Assembly (NCBI GenBank): GCA_964293005.1
Contig: CAXYXW010000020.1
Span: 3,766-67,765 of the forward strand
Length of the DNA stretch: 64,000 nt
Direction: 5' to 3'
Source of the DNA: an uncultured Thiothrix sp.
GTDB lineage: Bacteria; Pseudomonadota; Gammaproteobacteria; Thiotrichales; Thiotrichaceae
Each line of letters starts with the position of its first letter. Positions within the stretch are counted from its first letter, which is position 1. The notes under the pieces are model-generated. The model did no database searches, had not been told where the DNA came from, and worked only from the letters and a program-made list of their open reading frames with translations. Positions 5,548 to 64,000 of the stretch are shown one piece after another. Made by a program: the position numbers and the translations under genes.

Positions 5548-7014
5548 TCAATCGTCGCCGTTTGTGATCTCCAGCTTGTTGGCCTGTAGCCAATTGCTCC
5601 CCAGATCCGTGCCTTCCACCTGGACGATGCTTTGTCCTGCAACGAGTGCAGCAAAAAAGTCATTGCGGCTGAGGCTCACGCCACTAGCCGATTCAAATTC
5701 AGTCTGGTCATTGACCAGAATCGAAATACCCATAATGCTCAAGATGCCATTTGCAGCATCCACCTGGCTGACAACCCCCTGCAATTCGCGCTCGCCACTG
5801 GCATCCGGCGTTTCGCGGTCGATGCGCAGGGCAAGCAATTGACCATTTGCCAATGGCATGGCCTTGACTTCGAGCAGGTCGTTGACGCGCAGGTCAGCAA
5901 AGCGGATGGATACATCCTCATCATTGACCTCCTCCAGCAAGATGGTGCGGGTATCAACCATCAGGGTATTGCCCATCAGGGTCAGGGTTTGGCTGGCTGT
6001 ATCCAGGGAGCTGATCGTGCCTTCCAGTTTAAGGGGGGCTGTGCCGCTGGTTTGACGGATGGATATTTCTTCTGCCACCAGTTCACCGGCTGCATTGGCT
6101 GTACCTTCCACCTCGATATGGGCATTGAGCTTCAGGTCACTCACCGTACCGTGTTCATATTCGGTATTTGCCGTGGTCACAATAGCTTGCCCATTCAGCA
6201 GGAAGCGGGAAGGGTGGGCAAAGGCGGTAATCAACCCTTCCAGCTCAATTTTTGTGCCATTGCTAAAGGCAGGGTAGGCGCTCTCCGCACTGACCAGGCT
6301 GGCTAATAAGTGTTGGTTTTGCACGGCCTGCTGGCTGGTGACTTGCACGTATTGGTTCACTGTGGGCTGTCCGCCGGGTAAGGCGTTGAGCATTGCCTGG
6401 CTGTAATCAATGGTCAGCCCATGCAGGACGAAGGTTTGGTTCATGCTGTCCACCTGGCTGATATAGCCTGCCAACACCTGGCTGGAAACTCCGGGGGTGA
6501 AGCTGCTTGCTCGCCGTGTGATGCTGCTGGCACGGATGACCCCTTGTGCATCCCGTACCCCGGACACTTCCAGCATATTGCCGACTACGACCTCAGTGAG
6601 CAGGGAAAAGCCGTGGAACAAGGTCAGGCTATCGGCATGCACGGTTTGTCCAAGCAGGGTCAGGTTGTTGCCGTTATGGGCAGTGACCATCCCATACAGG
6701 CTCCTGCTGGCCTCAACCTGCTGGGCGACCCCGTTGATGCCATCGCTCTGGATCGTGCCGTAGATGGTGACAATTTCCCCGATCTGGTAGGCATTTTGCC
6801 CGCCCACGAGCGCACCATCACGGTAGAAGTGCGCGGTACTGACATCGTAGCGCACCCCATTCTGGATAATGCTGCCAAAACCCGTAATGGGCCCGAGTGA
6901 AATGCCTGTACCACCGATACCACCCTCTGCCAGTTGGGTATCTGCACAGCCTGCCAGCCATCCCAGCAGGAAGAGGCTGGCAGCGGTGCGTTGCAGGAGG
7001 TGTTTAACGTTCAT
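5548..7014 (-). CDS. Lipoprotein with repeated beta-rich domains (DUF5666-like), unknown function
   Basis: Lipobox LAGCADT. Internal repeats of roughly 100 aa with G-rich motifs (GGIGGTGISLGPITGFGSI...). Overlaps the upstream gene by 4 nt (ATGA). Confidence 0.45.
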   Translation of the reverse strand: MNVKHLLQRTAASLFLLGWLAGCADTQLAEGGIGGTGISLGPITGFGSIIQNGVRYDVSTAHFYRDGALVGGQNAYQIGEIVTIYGTIQSDGINGVAQQVEASRSLYGMVTAHNGNNLTLLGQTVHADSLTLFHGFSLLTEVVVGNMLEVSGVRDAQGVIRASSITRRASSFTPGVSSQVLAGYISQVDSMNQTFVLHGLTIDYSQAMLNALPGGQPTVNQYVQVTSQQAVQNQHLLASLVSAESAYPAFSNGTKIELEGLITAFAHPSRFLLNGQAIVTTANTEYEHGTVSDLKLNAHIEVEGTANAAGELVAEEISIRQTSGTAPLKLEGTISSLDTASQTLTLMGNTLMVDTRTILLEEVNDEDVSIRFADLRVNDLLEVKAMPLANGQLLALRIDRETPDASGERELQGVVSQVDAANGILSIMGISILVNDQTEFESASGVSLSRNDFFAALVAGQSIVQVEGTDLGSNWLQANKLEITNGDD

Positions 7015-55121: not shown

Positions 55122-56285
55122 TTATGATGCTTTCGGCTTATCGGTCAAGCGTACCAAATCGTTCATCACACCCTCCAGACCGCCGTAGACGTTCAAGGTG
55201 CTGATGTGGGCAGTGACCCGTTCCAGCACTTCCAGCTCTTTCAGGCGCAGCAACACCGGGTTGCCTTCCATGACTTTGGCGGTGTTGTGCATGGAGCGGG
55301 TTTCCTGTGTTTCTTCGCGGCGGCGGATTTGGTTGGCTTCGGCCTTTTTCTCGGCTTCGACCACTTGCGCCAAAATCGCTTTCATTTCACCGGGCAACAC
55401 AATGTCACGCGCCCCGACGGTTTTCAGGTCGATGCCGTAAGTCGCCGCCTTTTCTGCCACGGTTTGCTGGATGGTTTGGTTGAGCAGGTTTTTGTCTGCC
55501 AGCAATTCGTCCAGCGTTTGCGTGGAAACCACCGCCCGCAATGCGAGTTGCAGTTCGCGGTACAGGTAGTCCTTGTGGTCTGCCAGCGCCGTTTTTACTT
55601 GTTGCGGATCAATAATCTGCCACATGGCGGACAGGTTGATGCGCAAGCCTACGCGGTCTTTGGTGAGGATTTCCTGACCATTAACCTCCATATTTTGCAG
55701 GCGGCAATCCAGTTGCGTGACCTTGATGATACGGTTGAACGCCCACCAAACGTGTTGCCCGGTGCTCAGGGTGGCTTGCTGCTCGCCGTTTACTTCCAGA
55801 AAGCCGGTGTGACCTTCGGGGATATGGGCGATCACCAGGGCGTTCAAGGCGGCAGAGCGCAGCAATGTTTCCTTGGTGGCCAGCAATTGACTTGCCAAGG
55901 CTTGTGGCAACTTGAAATCGTTACCGATGTCGAGTTTGCGCACTTCGATGACCCGCTGACCTTGCCAGCATGCACCCCGTTGGGCAGGCGGCTTGATGTC
56001 TTTCAACACTTTGTCCTGGTAGAGCAAACCGACTTCCTGTTCACCCGTTTCCCAGCGTAATAGGTGCGCCGCAAACTTGTCCGGGTGCAAGTCGGCAAGG
56101 CTGACCACTTCATCCGGCACGAAGGTTTGCGCACTGCCGGTGACAGCGAATTGCTGCACGCGGTATTGGTTTTTCCAGCCATGAAAGGTGTGGACACCCG
56201 CAGGCAGTACTTGCACGAACTGTTCGTCTTTGAACAACAGCCCGCGATGTGTTTCTGGAACAATAATCTTGGTTTTGAATAACAT
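55122..56285 (-). CDS. SPFH/band-7 (slipin/stomatin-like) domain protein
   Basis: Start MLFKTKIIVPETHRGLLFKDEQ. SPFH core, then a C-terminal coiled coil (AEKKAEANQIRRREETQE). The ORF-track extension to 56720 runs through the tRNA-like sequences and is rejected. Confidence 0.75.
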   Translation of the reverse strand: MLFKTKIIVPETHRGLLFKDEQFVQVLPAGVHTFHGWKNQYRVQQFAVTGSAQTFVPDEVVSLADLHPDKFAAHLLRWETGEQEVGLLYQDKVLKDIKPPAQRGACWQGQRVIEVRKLDIGNDFKLPQALASQLLATKETLLRSAALNALVIAHIPEGHTGFLEVNGEQQATLSTGQHVWWAFNRIIKVTQLDCRLQNMEVNGQEILTKDRVGLRINLSAMWQIIDPQQVKTALADHKDYLYRELQLALRAVVSTQTLDELLADKNLLNQTIQQTVAEKAATYGIDLKTVGARDIVLPGEMKAILAQVVEAEKKAEANQIRRREETQETRSMHNTAKVMEGNPVLLRLKELEVLERVTAHISTLNVYGGLEGVMNDLVRLTDKPKAS

Positions 56286-56516
56286 GGCGTTGTCCTTTAA
56301 AAATAAGGTGGCATTCCCCCACACCCTTGCAGGCTTGGCGGTTTGTGTTGGATGGGAATGCCGCATGAGCCGGAGCTGTAGCGGTTTCGCATCCACCAAA
56401 CCCACCGTCAAGGCAGCGCGGGTGCTGGTCGTAGCCTTTTTGCACGAATGCAGTCGGGCATTGACCGTAGGGGATTGCCGTTTGTTTGCCCTTGCGGGCC
56501 AAGCTACCATTAGGGT

Positions 56517-56587
56517 AGTTACCAGTTGGAGTCGAACCAACGACAGCTTGATCAAGTCAAGTGCTCTACCGATTGAGCTATGGTAAG
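56517..56587 (-). tRNA. tRNA-like sequence 2 (canonical D- and T-arms, atypical anticodon arm)
   Basis: Reverse complement reads CTTACCA-TA-GCTC-AATCGGTA-GAGC-A-CTTGA-CTTGA-TCAAG-CTGTC-GTTGG-TTCGACT-CCAAC-TGGTAAC-T. The T-loop TTCGA is present. The anticodon loop appears to be 5 nt. Confidence 0.4.
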
Positions 56588-56588
56588 G

Positions 56589-56656
56589 AGCAGCTAATGG
56601 GGGTCGAACCCATGACCACCGCTTGTGCGGTTGCTCTACCACTGAGCTATAGCCGC
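56589..56656 (-). tRNA. tRNA-like sequence 1 (canonical D- and T-arms, atypical anticodon arm)
   Basis: Reverse complement reads GCGGCTA-TA-GCTC-AGTGGTA-GAGC-A-ACCGC-ACAA-GCGGT-GGTC-ATGGG-TTCGACC-CCCAT-TAGCTGC-T. It is 68 nt, about 3-5 nt short of a standard tRNA. Separated from tRNA-like 2 by 1 nt. Confidence 0.4.
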
Positions 56657-57041
56657 ATGTCTGGCGTTCTGTTAACCGATACACATACTTGCCAGTGGCA
56701 GTTGTGTCAGGCAGGCACACAGAACCTGCTCCACGGGTTAGACAGTTAGTCCAGACAGGATTAGGTATAGCAAAGGTCGTGCCAATGAAGGGTTTTGTTT
56801 TTAGTATTTTGATTTTTATTGTTTTTTTATTTTAGACTGTTGCGGGTGGAGAGTAGGGATTTTGGTAAAATTATCCTTATAGATATATTTCTATCTGTCA
56901 CTGCTGGTCTTATCAATTGTTTCCTTTCTTATTTTATTCCTTTGCAATAACCCCACCCCCGCCCCTGTAAATTACCCAGCAGACGGGTATCCGATAATCT
57001 GCTAAGGTATCTGTGCGTCATGCATTGAGAGGAGCCTGCCG

Positions 57042-60785: not shown

Positions 60786-60998
60786 ACAAAATTACCCTGT
60801 GTTAAGAATCTTGACCGGATTCTAACATCGATTGGTGCAATACGCTGAAATCATCCGCTAGCCTGATGGTTGTTGATCCGTCATGCTGTCATGGAAAAAG
60901 ATAATCTGCTATCTATAAAGATAAACCTTCTGTAAGGCAAGATTTTTAAAAACAAGGCTTTAAGAAATTAAACTTAGTATTTTCAATACCATAAAAAC

Positions 60999-61016
60999 CT
61001 AAAGCATACTTGGCAC
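60999..61016 (+). promoter_or_regulatory. Sigma-54-type (-24/-12) promoter upstream of rtcB
   Basis: cTTGGCACagccaTTGCAat has GG and GC elements with the canonical spacing (TGGCAC-N5-TTGCA). It lies about 55 nt upstream of the rtcB ATG. Confidence 0.5.
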
Positions 61017-61072
61017 AGCCATTGCAATACTTTAAGCACAATACAACGGCAATGAGCCAAGGAGAACCTACC

Positions 61073-62305
61073 ATGACAACCACATCCCAATACGAAGTAC
61101 TGCATCAGGCCGGACATGCGCCGGTGAAATCGTGGACACGCGGTGTCGTCTTTGATGACAACTCCAAACAGCAATTGCTGAACATTGCGCAAATGCCATT
61201 CATTCACCAATGGGTCGCCGCGATGCCAGATGTGCATTTGGGGAAGGGGGCAACCATTGGCAGTGTGATTCCGACCATTGGTGCAATCATCCCGGCTGCG
61301 GTGGGGGTGGATTTGGGCTGCGGGATGATGGCGGCAAAAACCACGCTCAAGGCCAGCGACCTGCCCGACTCGCTGGAAGCGTTGCGTCACGCGATTGAAA
61401 AGGCCGTCCCTCATGGGCGCAGTGCGGATTTTCGAAGTAAGCGCGATGTCGGTAGCTGGGGTGAGCCGCCTGAAGACGTGCTGGAAAAGTGGCTGCAACT
61501 GAGTGAAGGCTTCCAGCGCCTGTGCGAAAAGCATCCCTTCCTGAAAAACACCAATAACCTGAAGCACTTGGGGACGCTGGGAACAGGCAACCATTTCATC
61601 GAGGTATGCCTGGATGAAACGCAAGCCGTGTGGGTGATGCTGCATAGCGGTTCACGCGGGGTGGGGAATGCCATCGGTACACACTTTATCGAGCAGGCAA
61701 AAAAGGACATGACACGCTGGTTTATCAGCCTGCCCGACAAAGACTTGGCCTACATCCCTGAAGGCAGCGAGCATTTCCGTGATTACGTGCGGGCAGTGGC
61801 ATGGGCGCAGGATTTCGCGCAAGCCAACCGTGAAGTGATGATGGCACGCACCCTGCAAGCGATGCGTGAGGTATTGCCCATGCCCTTCACGGCGGATGTG
61901 GAGGCGGTAAATTGCCACCACAACTACATCAGCCGCGAACACCACTACGGTAAGGATGTGTGGGTAACGCGCAAAGGTGCGGTGAGTGCGCAAAAAGGCC
62001 AGCTTGGGATTATTCCGGGCAGCATGGGGGCGAAATCCTTCATCGTGCGCGGTTTAGGGAACGAGGAAAGCTTTTGCAGTTGCAGCCACGGTGCGGGGCG
62101 CGTGATGTCGCGTACTGAAGCGAAACGCCGCGTGTCGCTGGATGAGCATAAACGCGCTGTCGCCGGGGTGGAATGCCGCGTGGATGAGGCGGTGATTGAC
62201 GAAACACCGTCCGCTTACAAACCGATTGAAAAGGTGATGGCAGCGCAGAGCGATTTGGTGGAGATTATGCATACCTTGAAACAGGTGGTTTGTGTGAAGG
62301 GGTAA
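61073..62305 (+). CDS. rtcB: RNA-splicing ligase RtcB
   Basis: Near full-length collinearity with E. coli RtcB (MPDVHLGKGATIGSVIPT, GTLGTGNHFIE, NCHHNY, SFCSCSHGAGR, VVCVKG C-terminus). RBS AAGGAG. Confidence 0.9.
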   Translation: MTTTSQYEVLHQAGHAPVKSWTRGVVFDDNSKQQLLNIAQMPFIHQWVAAMPDVHLGKGATIGSVIPTIGAIIPAAVGVDLGCGMMAAKTTLKASDLPDSLEALRHAIEKAVPHGRSADFRSKRDVGSWGEPPEDVLEKWLQLSEGFQRLCEKHPFLKNTNNLKHLGTLGTGNHFIEVCLDETQAVWVMLHSGSRGVGNAIGTHFIEQAKKDMTRWFISLPDKDLAYIPEGSEHFRDYVRAVAWAQDFAQANREVMMARTLQAMREVLPMPFTADVEAVNCHHNYISREHHYGKDVWVTRKGAVSAQKGQLGIIPGSMGAKSFIVRGLGNEESFCSCSHGAGRVMSRTEAKRRVSLDEHKRAVAGVECRVDEAVIDETPSAYKPIEKVMAAQSDLVEIMHTLKQVVCVKG

Positions 62306-62334
62306 CGTTCCAGCGCGATTTCAAAGAGTTTATC

Positions 62335-62367
62335 GAGATACTCAACAATCACTCGGTTGAGTATCTT
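62335..62367. other. Strong hairpin at the GC/AT composition boundary after rtcB
   Basis: GAGATACTCAAC - 9 nt loop - GTTGAGTATCTT. No clear U-tract. Confidence 0.35.
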
Positions 62368-62434
62368 GCCAAGTTCCGATAGATTACATACTCTGTTTTG
62401 AACGAAATATCTTCGCGGGGCTTGATTTTAACGC

Positions 62435-63142
62435 ATGAAAATTATCACATGGAATTGCAATGGAGCATTCAGGAAGAAATACAGCTTACTTGAAGCATTT
62501 GACGCTGATCTGCTTATTATTCAAGAATGTGAAGACCCAGCACAATCAACTGCTGAATATAAAAACTGGGCAAGAGAATATTTATGGATAGGTGATAATA
62601 AAAATAAAGGTCTTGGCGTATTTTCAAGAAAAGGACATAAGCTCGTAAAGCTTAATTGGGATTGCGGTCGTCTGCAACTATTCCTGCCATTTCAGTTTGA
62701 TAGTAAAACGACCATTGTAGCAATATGGACAAAGCAAGCAGGGTCAAAGCATTTTGGGTACATAGGCCAGCTTTGGAAGTATCTTCAACTGCACAAATCA
62801 AAATTAACTCAGGGAAATACCATTTTGTGTGGTGACTGGAATAGCAATGCTATTTGGCATGATCATGAGGCGTGGTGGAATCATTTGGATGTAGTACGTG
62901 AGTTGGAGGAGCTTGATATATGCAGCTTGTATCATAGACTATATAATCGGCAGCAAGGTCAAGAAATACATCCAACGCTATATATGTACCGTAAGCGCGA
63001 ACGTCCGTTTCACATTGATTACATTTTTATGCATCAGAAAATTTTTGACAATGAAACCTCACTGGATATAGGGAAAGCAGATGAATGGCTTGCGCACAGT
63101 GATCACATGCCAATCATGGCAACCATTAGTCTTGGAAAATAA
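62435..63142 (+). CDS. Endonuclease/exonuclease/phosphatase (EEP) family protein
   Basis: MKIITWNCNG N-terminus and the EEP pattern (GDWNS, SDHMP). GC is markedly lower than the flanks. Confidence 0.6.
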   Translation: MKIITWNCNGAFRKKYSLLEAFDADLLIIQECEDPAQSTAEYKNWAREYLWIGDNKNKGLGVFSRKGHKLVKLNWDCGRLQLFLPFQFDSKTTIVAIWTKQAGSKHFGYIGQLWKYLQLHKSKLTQGNTILCGDWNSNAIWHDHEAWWNHLDVVRELEELDICSLYHRLYNRQQGQEIHPTLYMYRKRERPFHIDYIFMHQKIFDNETSLDIGKADEWLAHSDHMPIMATISLGK

Positions 63143-63144
63143 AC

Positions 63145-63771
63145 ATGGAAAAACAAATGCTTCCAGATTTTTTTAGTTTCAATAGATCAAGCGATCATGC
63201 GCTAATAACAACAGAGGAGCTTAATTGGGAAGGGCCTTTCTCTTGGAATGGCTATGGCAAATGTGACCATCTCGATGATGTTCATGACATTGCTGGTGTG
63301 TATTTATTTACTTTTGAGTACCAGGATGGTTATATTCTACGATCAGTGGGGGTAAGTAACTCGATAAAGAAGAGGATAAGCCAGCATACTCGTGAATATA
63401 AAAAAGGTAATTATACAATACTGAATGTAGAATCTGCAAAAGAAGGCATAAGAAAGGAGATATGGCACGGATGGAGTTATGCCAAGAAAAACATTGATCA
63501 GTTTAATCTGCATAAAGACGATATGCTGTTGGCAGTTGACAAAGAGTTGGCAGCATATCGTTTATTTACTGCTAGTGTTTCGGATAAAAGGAAGCGGGAA
63601 AGAATCGAATTTTCTATCATGCACCATGTATATGGATCAAAAGAACCTTGGTCTGACTTGGTTGATGGAGGAATGTATTTAATAGGAAGATCGAACTATG
63701 ATATTCCTGTTATCATCAATAACAAATGCATGCATAAAATATATGGACTTGCTGAATCTTTAGAGGTGTAA
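63145..63771 (+). CDS. Hypothetical protein with a GIY-YIG-like nuclease motif
   Basis: GVYLFTFEYQDGYILRSVGVSNSIKKRISQH resembles GIY-x(9)-YIG-x(n)-R-x2-QH. Starts 3 nt after the EEP gene. AT-rich. Confidence 0.35.
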   Translation: MEKQMLPDFFSFNRSSDHALITTEELNWEGPFSWNGYGKCDHLDDVHDIAGVYLFTFEYQDGYILRSVGVSNSIKKRISQHTREYKKGNYTILNVESAKEGIRKEIWHGWSYAKKNIDQFNLHKDDMLLAVDKELAAYRLFTASVSDKRKRERIEFSIMHHVYGSKEPWSDLVDGGMYLIGRSNYDIPVIINNKCMHKIYGLAESLEV

Positions 63772-63782
63772 GCCTGCAATAA

Positions 63783-63986
63783 TCATAAACTGCGCAACGC
63801 CTTTAACTCCGCTTCGAGTTCACCGGGTTCGTAGTTGGTGACGGGGATTTTGTATTTAGCGCATTCTTCGTAAAAGCGGTAGCGAGCTACATCTGCAAAC
63901 TCACAAGCAAAACCAGCGGAGTGAAACCAGCGGAGTGGTTGATGCCATACGCGCCAACTTAAGCCCCTATCCTCTTGATTAAACAC
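63783..63986 (-). CDS. Small ORF at the window edge (possibly the C-terminal part of a longer gene)
   Basis: ORF track only. Contains a direct repeat accagcggagtg. Cannot be resolved within the window. Confidence 0.15.
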   Translation of the reverse strand: MFNQEDRGLSWRVWHQPLRWFHSAGFACEFADVARYRFYEECAKYKIPVTNYEPGELEAELKALRSL

Positions 63987-64000
63987 GGCTCATCCCCATT

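What the first reader, a model, noticed from the sequence alone, without database searches (positions are those of the whole stretch)
62335..63771. AT-rich two-gene islet (EEP-family nuclease plus GIY-YIG-like protein) after rtcB, demarcated by a strong hairpin
GC drops sharply (to roughly 40% by eye) from about 62400 to 63780. The islet carries two tightly spaced genes. One is an endonuclease/exonuclease/phosphatase-fold protein (MKIITWNCNG...). The other is a 208 aa protein with a GIY-YIG-like signature (GVYLF...YILRSVG...RISQH). A 12 bp-stem hairpin (62335-62367) sits exactly at the composition boundary. The composition and the nuclease pairing suggest a horizontally acquired toxin/defence-like module. 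RtcB loci are frequent neighbours of such cargo.
Basis: partly seen in the sequence, partly recalled or inferred. Interest (0 to 1): 0.6.

Follow-up and report, generated by a model that had tools for sequence, protein, structure and literature searches.

The report
Horizontally acquired two-nuclease gene islet
A 1.4-kb AT-rich insert after rtcB carries two intact DNA-nuclease genes, one ExoIII/LINE-1-like and one from an uncharacterised GIY-YIG family; both move between distant microbes and pair up repeatedly, but their function (defence-like or selfish) is untested.

Summary
Window 62344-63786 is the most AT-rich 1.4 kb of the 64 kb (GC 0.38 against 0.55, about 6 sd). It holds two coupled genes.

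A close relative (L094) lacks exactly this segment. None of the 79 other rtcB loci fetched carries it.

The GIY-YIG gene occurs in 74 genome loci across bacteria and archaea, mostly as a single-gene AT-rich islet between housekeeping genes. Its DNA is 76-90% identical across orders. It was not found in phage, viral or plasmid collections.

Its only recurrent partners are:
- an EEP homologue (10 of about 72 loci, both gene orders, polyphyletic EEPs);
- a 93-aa mini GIY-YIG-like protein, sometimes fused to it;
- DUF6994.

Both genes are under purifying selection here.

The hairpin is real, but it lies in a pseudogene remnant and is not a terminator. The link to RtcB is incidental.

My reading is a methylase-less, restriction-like mobile two-nuclease unit. 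Whether it serves defence or is selfish remains unproven.

The parts
62344..63786 (.). AT-rich islet: the segment that is present here and in L001, L007 and L023 but absent from the close relative L094. Its boundaries are ambiguous within the 9-bp repeats.
   Evidence: A blastn comparison of L094 with L023 and with the window defines the segment. L023 5185-6646 (1462 bp) is missing in L094, and the window equivalent runs from about 62347-62352 to about 63777-63782. GC is 0.38.
62435..63142 (+). EEP-fold nuclease gene (235 aa) of the ExoIII/APE1/LINE-1-endonuclease branch, with its catalytic residues intact.
63145..63771 (+). Gene for a 208-aa stand-alone GIY-YIG-fold protein, the founding member here of an unannotated family. 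It is translationally coupled to the EEP gene (2-nt spacer).
62334..62368 (+). Hairpin (11 perfect bp, 13 with flanking pairs, 9-nt loop). It straddles the left indel breakpoint and is not a canonical terminator.
   Evidence: It is conserved in L007 and L001, with one arm mismatch in L023.
62308..62382 (+). Remnant ORF 'FQRDFKEFIEILNNHSVEYLAKFR*', together with the overlapping tail '...RFQRVYRDTQQSLG*' of an upstream 74-aa ORF that is complete in L023 and L094. Both are pseudogene debris between rtcB and the islet.
   Evidence: Three-frame translations of the window, L007, L001 and L023. tblastn of the peptide across the loci.
62344..62352 (+). Left copy of an imperfect 9-bp direct repeat, AACAATCAC. 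The right copy, AATAATCAT, is at 63778-63786. The empty site in L094 has one copy, GGTAATCAT.
   Evidence: Read directly. The match is 7 of 9, which I estimate is only marginally above chance.
63783..63986 (-). Right flank: a degraded UPF0175-family (antitoxin-like) gene. It converges on the GIY-YIG gene with 11 nt between the two stop codons, and it carries a 14-bp tandem duplication at 63910-63937.
   Evidence: Pfam UPF0175 scores 26.8 bits here, just under the cut-off. The intact L007 orthologue scores 57.8 bits. The duplication was found and is seen in the alignment.
61073..62305 (+). Left flank: rtcB (RNA ligase). It is a host gene and not part of the islet.
   Evidence: PF01139, E 5.6e-131. 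Homology to other rtcB loci ends at its stop codon.

Best explanation
The islet is a horizontally acquired, self-contained two-gene operon of DNA nucleases with no methyltransferase, recombinase or immunity gene. I read it as a restriction-like mobile nuclease unit.

Shown:
- Both proteins have complete catalytic sets and are under purifying selection.
- The segment is an indel polymorphism between close relatives.
- The GIY-YIG family spreads between orders, and between Bacteria and Archaea, as a tiny AT-rich unit.
- It repeatedly acquires a second-nuclease-type partner: an EEP, a 93-aa GIY-YIG-like mini-protein that is sometimes fused to it, or DUF6994.

Inferred mechanism:
- The 208-aa GIY-YIG protein is the primary, target-selecting endonuclease. 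It has one active site, so by itself it nicks or needs to dimerise.
- The EEP partner, which is structurally closest to the nicking LINE-1 endonuclease and to ExoIII, either cuts the second strand or enlarges the nick by 3'-5' exonuclease or AP-endonuclease action. A repairable nick then becomes a lethal gap or break in the target DNA.
- Because no protecting methylase exists, the target is most likely DNA that the host does not have: incoming, modified or otherwise non-self DNA. This is type-IV-like innate defence.
- The unit's own spread benefits from the same activity, as with selfish restriction genes.
- Transcription is probably by read-through from rtcB or from weak AT-rich promoters. 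No promoter or terminator above chance separates the islet from rtcB.
For: Nuclease identity.

The genes are functional here: dN/dS is 0.09 (EEP) and 0.16 (GIY), against 0.08 for rtcB.

Accessory and horizontally transferred:
- L094 lacks the segment, yet is 98.5% identical to L023 on the left flank and 92.3% on the right.
- None of the 79 other rtcB loci has it.
- GC3 is 0.33-0.35.
- In 63 of 72 loci the GIY gene has lower GC than its flanks, for example 0.35 against 0.58 in L018.
- GIY DNA is 82-90% identical across Clostridia families and 76-78% identical to a Methanobacteriota MAG.
- An identical protein (P0101) sits in two different contexts, inside a segment of at least 2.6 kb that is 99% identical and abuts an IS.

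Partnership:
- An EEP is adjacent, on the same strand and within about 100 bp, in 10 of about 72 loci, in both gene orders.
- The paired EEPs are polyphyletic among solitary EEPs.
- A 93-aa GIY-YIG-like partner is adjacent in 7 loci and fused in P0085 and P0100.

Weak defence colouring:
- A bona fide Uzume gene lies directly upstream in L032.
- Some neighbours hit PADLOC models.
- Single-gene GIY-YIG defence systems exist: Uzume, PD-T4-3 and PD-lambda-1 (bioRxiv 10.1101/2024.10.26.620412; PDB 9u75).
- Decay is frequent: frameshifted or truncated copies in L023, L051, L052, L058, L060 and L076-L078.
- The local neighbourhood here is toxin-antitoxin debris: UPF0175, and RelB/PIN in L001.
Against: - No experiment supports the function, and there is no hit to any complete known defence system. 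PADLOC gives only a 43-residue UzuA motif match at E 7e-4.
- In the other lineages the pair, and most solitary copies, lie between housekeeping genes (NhaA, TrkH, PNPase, recR, the suf operon) rather than in defence islands.
- I could not build a valid background for defence enrichment.
- About 85% of GIY genes and most EEP genes have no such partner, so the two need not act together.
- The protein has no recognisable modification-sensing domain.
- The division of labour (nick plus second cut or resection) is pure inference.
- A physical interaction was not tested.
Confidence: 0.4

Rival explanations
1. Selfish homing-type nuclease genes. The GIY-YIG protein, with or without a helper nuclease, cuts a long rare site in genomes that lack the gene. 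Repair from a gene-bearing copy then spreads the unit. No host benefit is needed.
For: - No immunity gene or methylase is present.
- The islets are single genes with sharp GC edges between conserved housekeeping genes.
- In Heliorestis and Desulforamulus the same unit (85% DNA identity) sits directly after rlmD-like genes that are only 38% identical to each other. Copies in L012, L014 and L016 carry only fragments of that rlmD 3' end, as if flanking DNA had been co-transferred.
- There is a recombination discontinuity at the islet: 98.5% against 92.3% flank identity.
- In L001 the islet is younger than its flank: dS 0.6-0.7 against 1.65 for rtcB.
- Pseudogenisation is frequent.
- The fold is related to I-TevI.
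Against: - The family was not found in 2.9 million viral contigs, GenBank phages or plasmids, the places where free-standing GIY-YIG homing genes live.
- It has no C-terminal DNA-binding module of the I-TevI/Seg type, and there is no intron or intein context.
- Insertion sites are very diverse: 129 Pfam families among 137 neighbours.
- Purifying selection is strong (dN/dS 0.16), and dS is similar to that of rtcB in L007 and L023. This suggests long vertical maintenance in this lineage.
- Homing between different cellular species needs a delivery route that is not evident.
Confidence: 0.27
2. An accessory DNA-repair pair. The GIY-YIG enzyme incises next to a lesion or mismatch, like UvrC-N, and the ExoIII-like EEP cleans the 3' end or AP site. 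This would be an alternative incision-repair route gained by horizontal transfer.
For: - The EEP is closest to the AP endonucleases ExoIII, NApe and ExoA.
- Fpg-type glycosylase domains occur in 2 of 137 neighbours, and a UDG gene lies about 2.3 kb downstream in one lineage.
- Purifying selection is strong.
Against: - The EEP fails the Xth equivalog cut-offs by a wide margin: 42 bits against 99, and 31 against 182.
- The distribution is extremely patchy, transfer between phyla is recent, the genes decay often, and the composition has not ameliorated. All of this is atypical for repair genes.
- The partner is interchangeable with a second GIY-YIG-like protein or with DUF6994, which makes no sense for an AP-site clean-up role.
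Confidence: 0.13
3. Two unrelated hitch-hiking orphan genes that merely share an insertion hotspot, with no joint function and possibly none at all in this host.
For: - Each family is mostly solitary.
- The site downstream of rtcB is a junkyard of gene remnants.
- No promoter was detected.
Against: - Adjacency recurs in at least 6 lineages, on the same strand, tightly spaced and in both orders, even though both families are very rare.
- The spacer here is 2 nt.
- dN/dS is 0.09-0.16 across four lineages.
Confidence: 0.1

Closest known systems
Single-gene GIY-YIG anti-phage systems (Uzume/UzuA, PD-T4-3, PD-lambda-1)
   Same: All are stand-alone, methylase-less GIY-YIG nucleases that are patchily distributed. 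PD-T4-3 is a solved 5hmC-specific restriction endonuclease (9u75, listed). A real UzuA gene sits next to a family member in L032.
   Different: - The protein is smaller (about 200 aa) and has no separate sensor domain.
- It recurrently teams up with a second nuclease.
Eco29kI-type GIY-YIG type II restriction endonucleases
   Different: - No cognate methyltransferase is present in the islet or recurrently near family members.
- There is no detectable sequence similarity to any PDB chain.
Free-standing GIY-YIG homing endonucleases (I-TevI, Seg proteins of T-even phages)
   Different: - No phage, intron or organelle context: no match in the viral contig, phage or plasmid searches.
- No linker plus DNA-binding domain.
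- The hosts are cellular chromosomes across many phyla.
ExoIII/APE1 AP endonucleases and LINE-1/R1/TRAS retrotransposon endonucleases (EEP fold)
   Different: - It is far below the Xth/ExoIII equivalog cut-offs.
- No reverse transcriptase is present.
- It belongs to its own clade of about 2400 clusters of 230-250-aa proteins that are themselves scattered as solitary AT-poor-host islets, for example inside a suf operon.
Mobile restriction-modification gene units without transposase (insertion with short target duplication, substitution next to rearrangements). This comparison is recalled from the literature of the Kobayashi group and was not re-read here.
   Same: Both are nuclease gene units with sharp boundaries and a short flanking direct repeat (9 bp, 7 of 9 identical), a presence/absence polymorphism between relatives, and an adjacent genome rearrangement.
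   Different: There is no modification gene. The direct repeat is only marginally significant. The direction of the event (insertion or deletion) is unresolved.

Membership tests
GIY-YIG nuclease superfamily | The core alpha/beta fold of the GIY-YIG domain | tested here: met
   [not shown]
GIY-YIG nuclease superfamily | The catalytic set: Tyr of GIY, Tyr/Gly of YIG, Arg, His/Tyr four residues later, Glu, Asn | tested here: met
   Y53, G69, R77 and E155 are invariant. H81 and N184 are at least 90% conserved. The second Tyr is Y or F. hhalign places VG...R...H on the I-TevI VG..R27..H31, but weakly (E 0.11). The residue mapping is otherwise by motif order, not by superposition.
GIY-YIG nuclease superfamily | Pfam PF01541 gathering threshold | tested here: not met
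   16.8 bits against a cut-off of 22.6, E 0.008. None of the family members listed carries a precomputed Pfam domain.
EEP (endonuclease/exonuclease/phosphatase) superfamily | The Pfam PF03372 threshold and the conserved N/E/D/N/D/D-H catalytic residues | tested here: met
   [not shown]
Exodeoxyribonuclease III (Xth) orthologue | NCBIfam equivalog cut-off (TIGR00633 / TIGR00195) | tested here: not met
   42.2 bits against 99.05, and 31.3 against 182.55.
Uzume (UzuA) defence system | Full-length match to a UzuA model | tested here: not met
   Only residues 41-86 match profile positions 148-190 of 277, at E 7e-4. By contrast, a true UzuA neighbour in L032 scores E 9e-62.
Type II restriction-modification system (Eco29kI-like) | A cognate DNA methyltransferase gene adjacent to the endonuclease | tested here: not met
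   There is no methyltransferase ORF in 62306-64000. DNA methyltransferases are rare among the 137 neighbours of family members.
Free-standing GIY-YIG homing endonuclease | Residence in phage, intron or organelle genomes, and a separate C-terminal DNA-binding domain | tested here: not met
   No relative in IMG/VR, GenBank phages or PLSDB. The family is a single compact domain of about 200 aa.
Free-standing GIY-YIG homing endonuclease | Cleavage of the gene-less allele and gene conversion into it | not testable with these tools
   This needs enzyme assays on the L094-type junction and on the rlmD 3' end.
Integron gene cassette | An attC recombination site after the ORF | tested here: not met
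   Only 11 nt separate the GIY stop codon (63769-63771) from the converging UPF0175 stop codon (63783-63785), and only 2 nt lie between the two islet genes. There is no room for an attC site.
Transposon / IS | A transposase gene and terminal inverted repeats | tested here: not met
   There is no such ORF, and no terminal inverted repeat pairs the islet ends. An rve-type IS abuts the unit in one Clostridia lineage only.
Known anti-phage system (PADLOC 2.0 models) | A significant hit of the components to a system's models | tested here: not met
   The EEP has no hit. The GIY protein has only weak motif hits. The EEP with a C-terminal extension (L047) and the fusion P0085 have no hit.
Intrinsic terminator (for the hairpin) | A GC-rich stem followed by a U-tract | tested here: not met
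   The terminator scan does not call it. The stem is AT-rich and is followed by GCCAAGTTCC.

The most novel reading that the evidence does not exclude
The 208-aa protein defines a previously undescribed class of minimal, recombinase-less mobile nuclease cassettes in cellular chromosomes of Bacteria and Archaea. In this reading it has a modular two-nuclease design: a GIY-YIG 'core' that plugs in interchangeable second partners (an ExoIII/LINE-1-like EEP, a 93-aa GIY-YIG-like mini-protein, or DUF6994). It would function either as a new methylase-less anti-phage/anti-plasmid system or as the first chromosomal, cross-phylum homing-like element of this fold.
Probability: 0.3. Interest if true: 0.75.

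Novelty: new variant of a known kind. Interest (0 to 1): 0.55.

Why it matters
If the pair is a defence module, it adds a compact two-nuclease architecture with a swappable partner to the catalogue of bacterial immunity. It would also give a function to an unannotated protein family found from Thiothrix-like Gammaproteobacteria to methanogens. The family has no Pfam, NCBIfam or PHROG model.

If the unit is selfish, it shows that homing-like nuclease genes circulate among cellular chromosomes without phages, introns or transposases.

Either way, it is a clean case of a roughly 1-kb gene unit crossing phylum and domain borders with 76-90% DNA identity. It also keeps a foreign base composition after about 0.6-0.7 synonymous substitutions per site. 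Current amelioration models do not predict that.

Small site- or structure-specific nickases of both folds are also of practical interest as enzymes.

Tried and rejected
- **RtcB-linked function (RNA repair cargo): rejected.** None of the 79 other rtcB loci carries either gene. Homology to the 88-90% rtcB relatives ends at the rtcB stop codon. Both nucleases belong to DNA-acting branches.
- **Hairpin as terminator or element end: rejected**.
- **Structured RNA in or around the islet:** no Rfam hit at E up to 1.
- **Phage or plasmid vehicle:** no GIY relative in IMG/VR, GenBank phages or PLSDB. The EEP occurs in 34 mostly non-mobilisable megaplasmids and in 4 viral contigs only.
- **Integron cassette, IS or transposon:** no attC space, no transposase and no terminal inverted repeats.
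- **EEP-GIY fusion proteins as Rosetta-stone evidence:** none found. The longer GIY homologues are fusions to the 93-aa mini-protein or have unrelated N-terminal extensions. The longer EEP homologues carry unrelated C-terminal tails.
- **Defence-island enrichment:** PADLOC on 137 immediate neighbours gave scattered hits (mad2 x4, UzuA, type I MTase and several PDC candidates). I could not build a fair background. The rtcB neighbours are a conserved operon, so I dropped that control. I do not count this result as evidence.
- **Apparent multi-copy genomes:** L021/L022 and L074/L075 turned out to be large duplicated or strain-variant regions, not independent insertions.
- **AFDB50 fold search:** unavailable.
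- **Literature:** full-text searches found no paper on this family or on an EEP plus GIY-YIG pair. The END-nuclease paper (PMC12191111) concerns a different fold.
- **Nucleotidyltransferase identity of the remnant ORF:** this rests on my memory of N-termini of that family and was not confirmed. No full-length paralogue is present in the data fetched.
Full report

Yes. GC in 300-bp windows drops from 0.55-0.60 within rtcB to 0.36-0.41 between about 62250 and 63900. The lowest 1400-bp window of the whole 64 kb starts at 62351, with GC 0.38 against a mean of 0.550 and sd of 0.029. No other 500-bp window of the 64 kb is below 0.43.

Two ORFs fill the stretch: 62435-63142 (235 aa) and 63145-63771 (208 aa). 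They are 2 nt apart on the + strand.

The hairpin exists. Its arms, 62336-62346 and 62356-62366, are 11 perfect pairs, and RNAfold extends the stem to 13 pairs. It has no T-run and is not called as a terminator.

**2. What are the two proteins?**

*Gene 1* is a bona fide EEP-fold enzyme.
- PF03372 scores 37.7 bits against a 24.5 cut-off.
- The catalytic residues N7, E33, D134, N136, D195, D223 and H224 are invariant across 30 homologues.
- A profile search of PDB sequences puts Neisseria ExoIII/NExo and the LINE-1 endonuclease first.
- It therefore belongs to the DNA-incising branch of the fold.
- It is not an Xth orthologue: it scores 42 bits against the 99-bit equivalog cut-off.

*Gene 2* has no Pfam, NCBIfam or PHROG assignment. 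Its GIY-YIG hit is sub-threshold at 16.8 bits against 22.6.
- In 30 family members Y53, G69, R77 and E155 are invariant. H81 and N184 are nearly so.
- This is the GIY...YIG...R-x3-H...E...N order of the superfamily. The mapping is by motif order, and hhalign to I-TevI is only weakly supportive.
- Beyond the core there are a strongly conserved N-terminal segment, a roughly 50-residue insertion (REY.KGNYT.LD...R.E.WHGW.YAK) and a C-terminal beta-hairpin.
- An exhaustive profile search of 1.84 billion cluster representatives finds 647 clusters at E up to 1e-3. Nearly all full-length proteins among the best 150 are stand-alone proteins of about 180-220 aa.

**3. Is the islet foreign, and where are its edges?**

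Four related contigs carry the same rtcB-EEP-GIY-UPF0175 layout with conserved junctions:
- L003, identical to the window;
- L007, an uncultured gammaproteobacterium;
- L001/L002;
- L023, a Thiolinea sp.

A metagenomic contig, L094, lacks the islet.
- It is 98.5% identical to L023 over the 2 kb to the left.
- It goes straight from the remnant ORF into the UPF0175 stop codon.
- L023 5185-6646 (1462 bp) is missing from it.
- In window coordinates the missing segment is about 62344-63786.
- The segment is bounded by an imperfect 9-bp direct repeat: AACAATCAC at 62344-62352 and AATAATCAT at 63778-63786.
- The empty site has one copy, GGTAATCAT.
- A 7-of-9 match at the junction is only marginally significant by my estimate.

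The direction of the event is unresolved.
- The remnant reading frame (FQRDFKEFIEILNNHSVEYL) continues 8 codons into the islet. This argues that L094 is a secondary deletion.
- L094 is only 92.3% identical to L023 on the right side. This points to a recombination breakpoint at the islet.

The other 79 rtcB loci fetched have neither gene. Homology to the 88-90% rtcB relatives (L089, L103) stops at the rtcB stop codon. The RtcB association is lineage-specific.

**4. The hairpin.**

The hairpin lies inside pseudogene debris. This debris is the tail of a 74-aa ORF that is complete in L023 and L094, plus the first 20 codons of a second ORF. The hairpin is conserved in L007 and L001 and has one arm mismatch in L023. 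The indel breakpoint falls at the end of its 5' arm. It marks the boundary by position, but nothing indicates that it is a functional signal.

**5. Selection and composition.**

Between the window and L007, L001 and L023, dN/dS is 0.09 for the EEP, 0.16 for the GIY gene and 0.08 for rtcB. Both genes are therefore maintained by selection here, although the L023 GIY copy is frameshifted.

dS of the islet genes is 0.59-0.75. This equals that of rtcB against L007 and L023, but it is much lower than rtcB against L001 (1.65). The islet seems to have been exchanged among relatives.

Despite that divergence, GC3 stays at 0.32-0.36 in all four lineages, against 0.52-0.72 for rtcB. I cannot explain this lack of amelioration.

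**6. The wider family: a mobile mini-gene.**

A scan of one genome per species found 74 loci. They come from Gammaproteobacteria, Betaproteobacteria, Bacillota, Bacteroidota, Chloroflexota, Cyanobacteria, Armatimonadota, Nitrospirota, Verrucomicrobiota and several methanogen lineages.

Composition:
- In 63 of 72 loci the gene has lower GC than its flanks.
- The close clade stays at GC 0.31-0.40 whatever the host. In L018 it is 0.35 against 0.58, as an islet of about 0.9 kb; in L020 it is 0.34 against 0.53.

DNA identity across hosts:
- It is 82-90% among Lachnoclostridium, Heliorestis, Desulforamulus, Desulfosporosinus, Christensenellales and 'Clostridiales mt11'.
- It is 76-78% to a Methanobacteriota MAG.

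Insertion sites:
- In Heliorestis and Desulforamulus the unit follows rlmD-like methyltransferase genes that are only 38% identical to each other.
- In L012, L014 and L016 only a 10-28-codon fragment of that gene's 3' end travels with the unit.
- An identical protein (P0101) occurs after recR in one context and after an acetyltransferase in another. In both it sits within a segment of at least 2.6 kb that is 99% identical and abuts an rve-type IS.

Vehicles: no relative was found in 2.9 million viral contigs, in GenBank phages or in 72,556 plasmids.

Neighbours:
- They are extremely heterogeneous: 129 Pfam families among 137 immediate neighbours, many of them housekeeping.
- A few hit PADLOC models, including a bona fide Uzume gene directly upstream in L032.
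- I could not construct a fair background, so I do not claim enrichment.

**7. Is the pairing meaningful?**

Yes. An EEP homologue lies immediately next to the GIY gene, on the same strand and at most about 100 bp away, in 10 of about 72 loci.
- The order is EEP-GIY in the window lineage and in L011, L028 and L058.
- The order is GIY-EEP in L033, L046, L047, L048 and L057.

In a tree of EEPs the paired ones are scattered among solitary ones. The window's EEP is nearest to the solitary EEPs of L169 and L170, at 65-66% identity. So either pairs formed several times or the partner was lost many times.

Both families are otherwise mostly solitary. Examples are an EEP inside a suf operon in Methyloprofundus, in Parvibaculaceae, and in 34 megaplasmids.

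Two other recurrent partners exist:
- a 93-aa protein with a classic GIY...YIG N-terminus, adjacent in 7 loci and in the L172-L183 series, fused N-terminally in P0085 and P0100, and with only a weak homing-endonuclease model hit;
- DUF6994, in 3 loci.

In other lineages the EEP-GIY pair is itself a two-gene islet between housekeeping genes: NhaA, DJ-1, a TonB receptor, TrkH, PNPase and a Cache sensor.

**8. Interpretation.**

What is shown:
- The segment is an accessory, horizontally transferred, self-contained operon of two catalytically complete DNA-type nucleases.
- There is no methylase, recombinase or immunity gene.
- The family behaves as a minimal mobile unit.
- Its association with a second nuclease-type partner is recurrent and re-assorted.

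What is inferred:
- The GIY-YIG protein selects and nicks the target.
- The EEP, which resembles the nicking LINE-1 EN and ExoIII, supplies the second cut or the resection.
- The target is non-self DNA.

I give the restriction-like defence/selfish-unit reading 0.40. A pure homing-type selfish element gets 0.27, an accessory repair pair 0.13, and chance co-residence 0.10. The rest is unassigned.

**9. Comparison with known systems.**

It works most like the single-gene GIY-YIG defence nucleases: Uzume, PD-T4-3 and PD-lambda-1 (bioRxiv 10.1101/2024.10.26.620412). It is not a member of any of them.

It resembles R.Eco29kI in size and build but has no methylase. It resembles free-standing homing endonucleases in genomic behaviour, but it lacks their hosts and their DNA-binding module.

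I found no literature on the family or on the pairing.

I rate it a new variant of a known kind (stand-alone mobile nuclease genes), with interest 0.55. It is solidly real and uncharacterised. Its cross-domain mobility and its swappable two-nuclease design are notable, but its function is untested.

Noticed in passing
window 63910-63937 (within 63783-63986, - strand): An exact 14-bp tandem duplication (AAACCAGCGGAGTG x2), together with a deletion relative to L007 and L023, disrupts the UPF0175-family gene. That gene is intact (90 aa, 57.8 bits) in L007. The window copy is a pseudogene.
   Followed up: partly
L023 4112-4937 and L094 1097-1922: The last ~110 bp of rtcB are duplicated as a direct repeat (87-89% identical). 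The two copies flank a ~0.6-kb AT-rich insert that holds a small signal-peptide/lipoprotein-like ORF on the minus strand. This is a second small insertion at the rtcB 3' end. The window, L007 and L001 lack it.
   Followed up: partly
window 55122-56720 (-) versus L007 7954-8703 and L001 8694-9854: The Band_7/SPFH gene lies ~1.2-2 kb downstream of the islet in the relatives. In the window it is ~5.6 kb upstream of the islet and inverted, with thioredoxin-like and DsbD-like ORFs in between. A rearrangement has an endpoint near this locus.
   Followed up: partly
window 62435-63771; L007, L001, L023 orthologues: GC3 of both islet genes is 0.32-0.36 in four lineages that differ by dS 0.6-0.75, while rtcB GC3 is 0.52-0.72. 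There has been no compositional amelioration. In L001 the islet is much less diverged from the window (dS 0.59-0.73) than rtcB is (dS 1.65).
   Followed up: partly
L012, L013, L014, L015, L016 about 5720-7000: In Clostridia a ~1.25-kb unit is 85-90% identical across families. It consists of a ~215-bp leader, the GIY gene and the 93-aa GIY-YIG-like gene. It begins within or at the last codons of an rlmD-like RNA methyltransferase gene. Three genomes carry only a fragment of that gene's 3' end.
   Followed up: partly
L178 4387-7020 and L179 4378-7020; L179 6775-7845: An identical 207-aa protein lies in two unrelated contexts, inside a 99%-identical segment of at least 2.6 kb. The segment also encodes the 94-aa partner and a 70-aa Cys-rich ORF. 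It runs into an rve-family IS with 30-nt imperfect terminal inverted repeats. The right end is masked by N in L178.
   Followed up: partly
L019 5147-5845, L079 5082-5792, L054 1685-2296: A DUF6994 protein (233 aa, E 1e-85) is a third recurrent neighbour of the GIY-YIG family, in three unrelated phyla. It sits immediately upstream on the same strand in two of them. Its function is unknown.
   Followed up: no
L032 5145-5972: A bona fide Uzume (UzuA, E 9e-62) gene sits 28 bp upstream of the GIY-YIG family gene, on the same strand, in a Bacteroidia MAG. These are two different stand-alone GIY-YIG nucleases in tandem.
   Followed up: partly
L047 6606-7553 and L048 6628-7575: In two Bacteroidota the paired EEP carries an extra C-terminal tail of roughly 80 residues, rich in charged residues (my impression only: it may be helical). 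Solitary homologues lack this tail. It has no Pfam or PADLOC hit.
   Followed up: no
window 60790-61060 and the rtcB loci L090-L168: rtcB here is preceded by a 270-bp AT-rich spacer (GC 0.37-0.41) and a divergent MipA gene. Most other rtcB loci fetched instead have a divergent ORF of about 530 aa upstream (possibly the regulator; not annotated here). The operon context of rtcB differs in this lineage.
   Followed up: no
L088 7610-8509 (Bacillus thuringiensis plasmid pSCG364): On Bacillus megaplasmids the distant EEP homologue (about 35% identity) lies two genes from an annotated 'GIY-YIG nuclease family protein' on the opposite strand. This is not the 208-aa family: tblastn found no match in plasmids. 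It may be coincidental.
   Followed up: no
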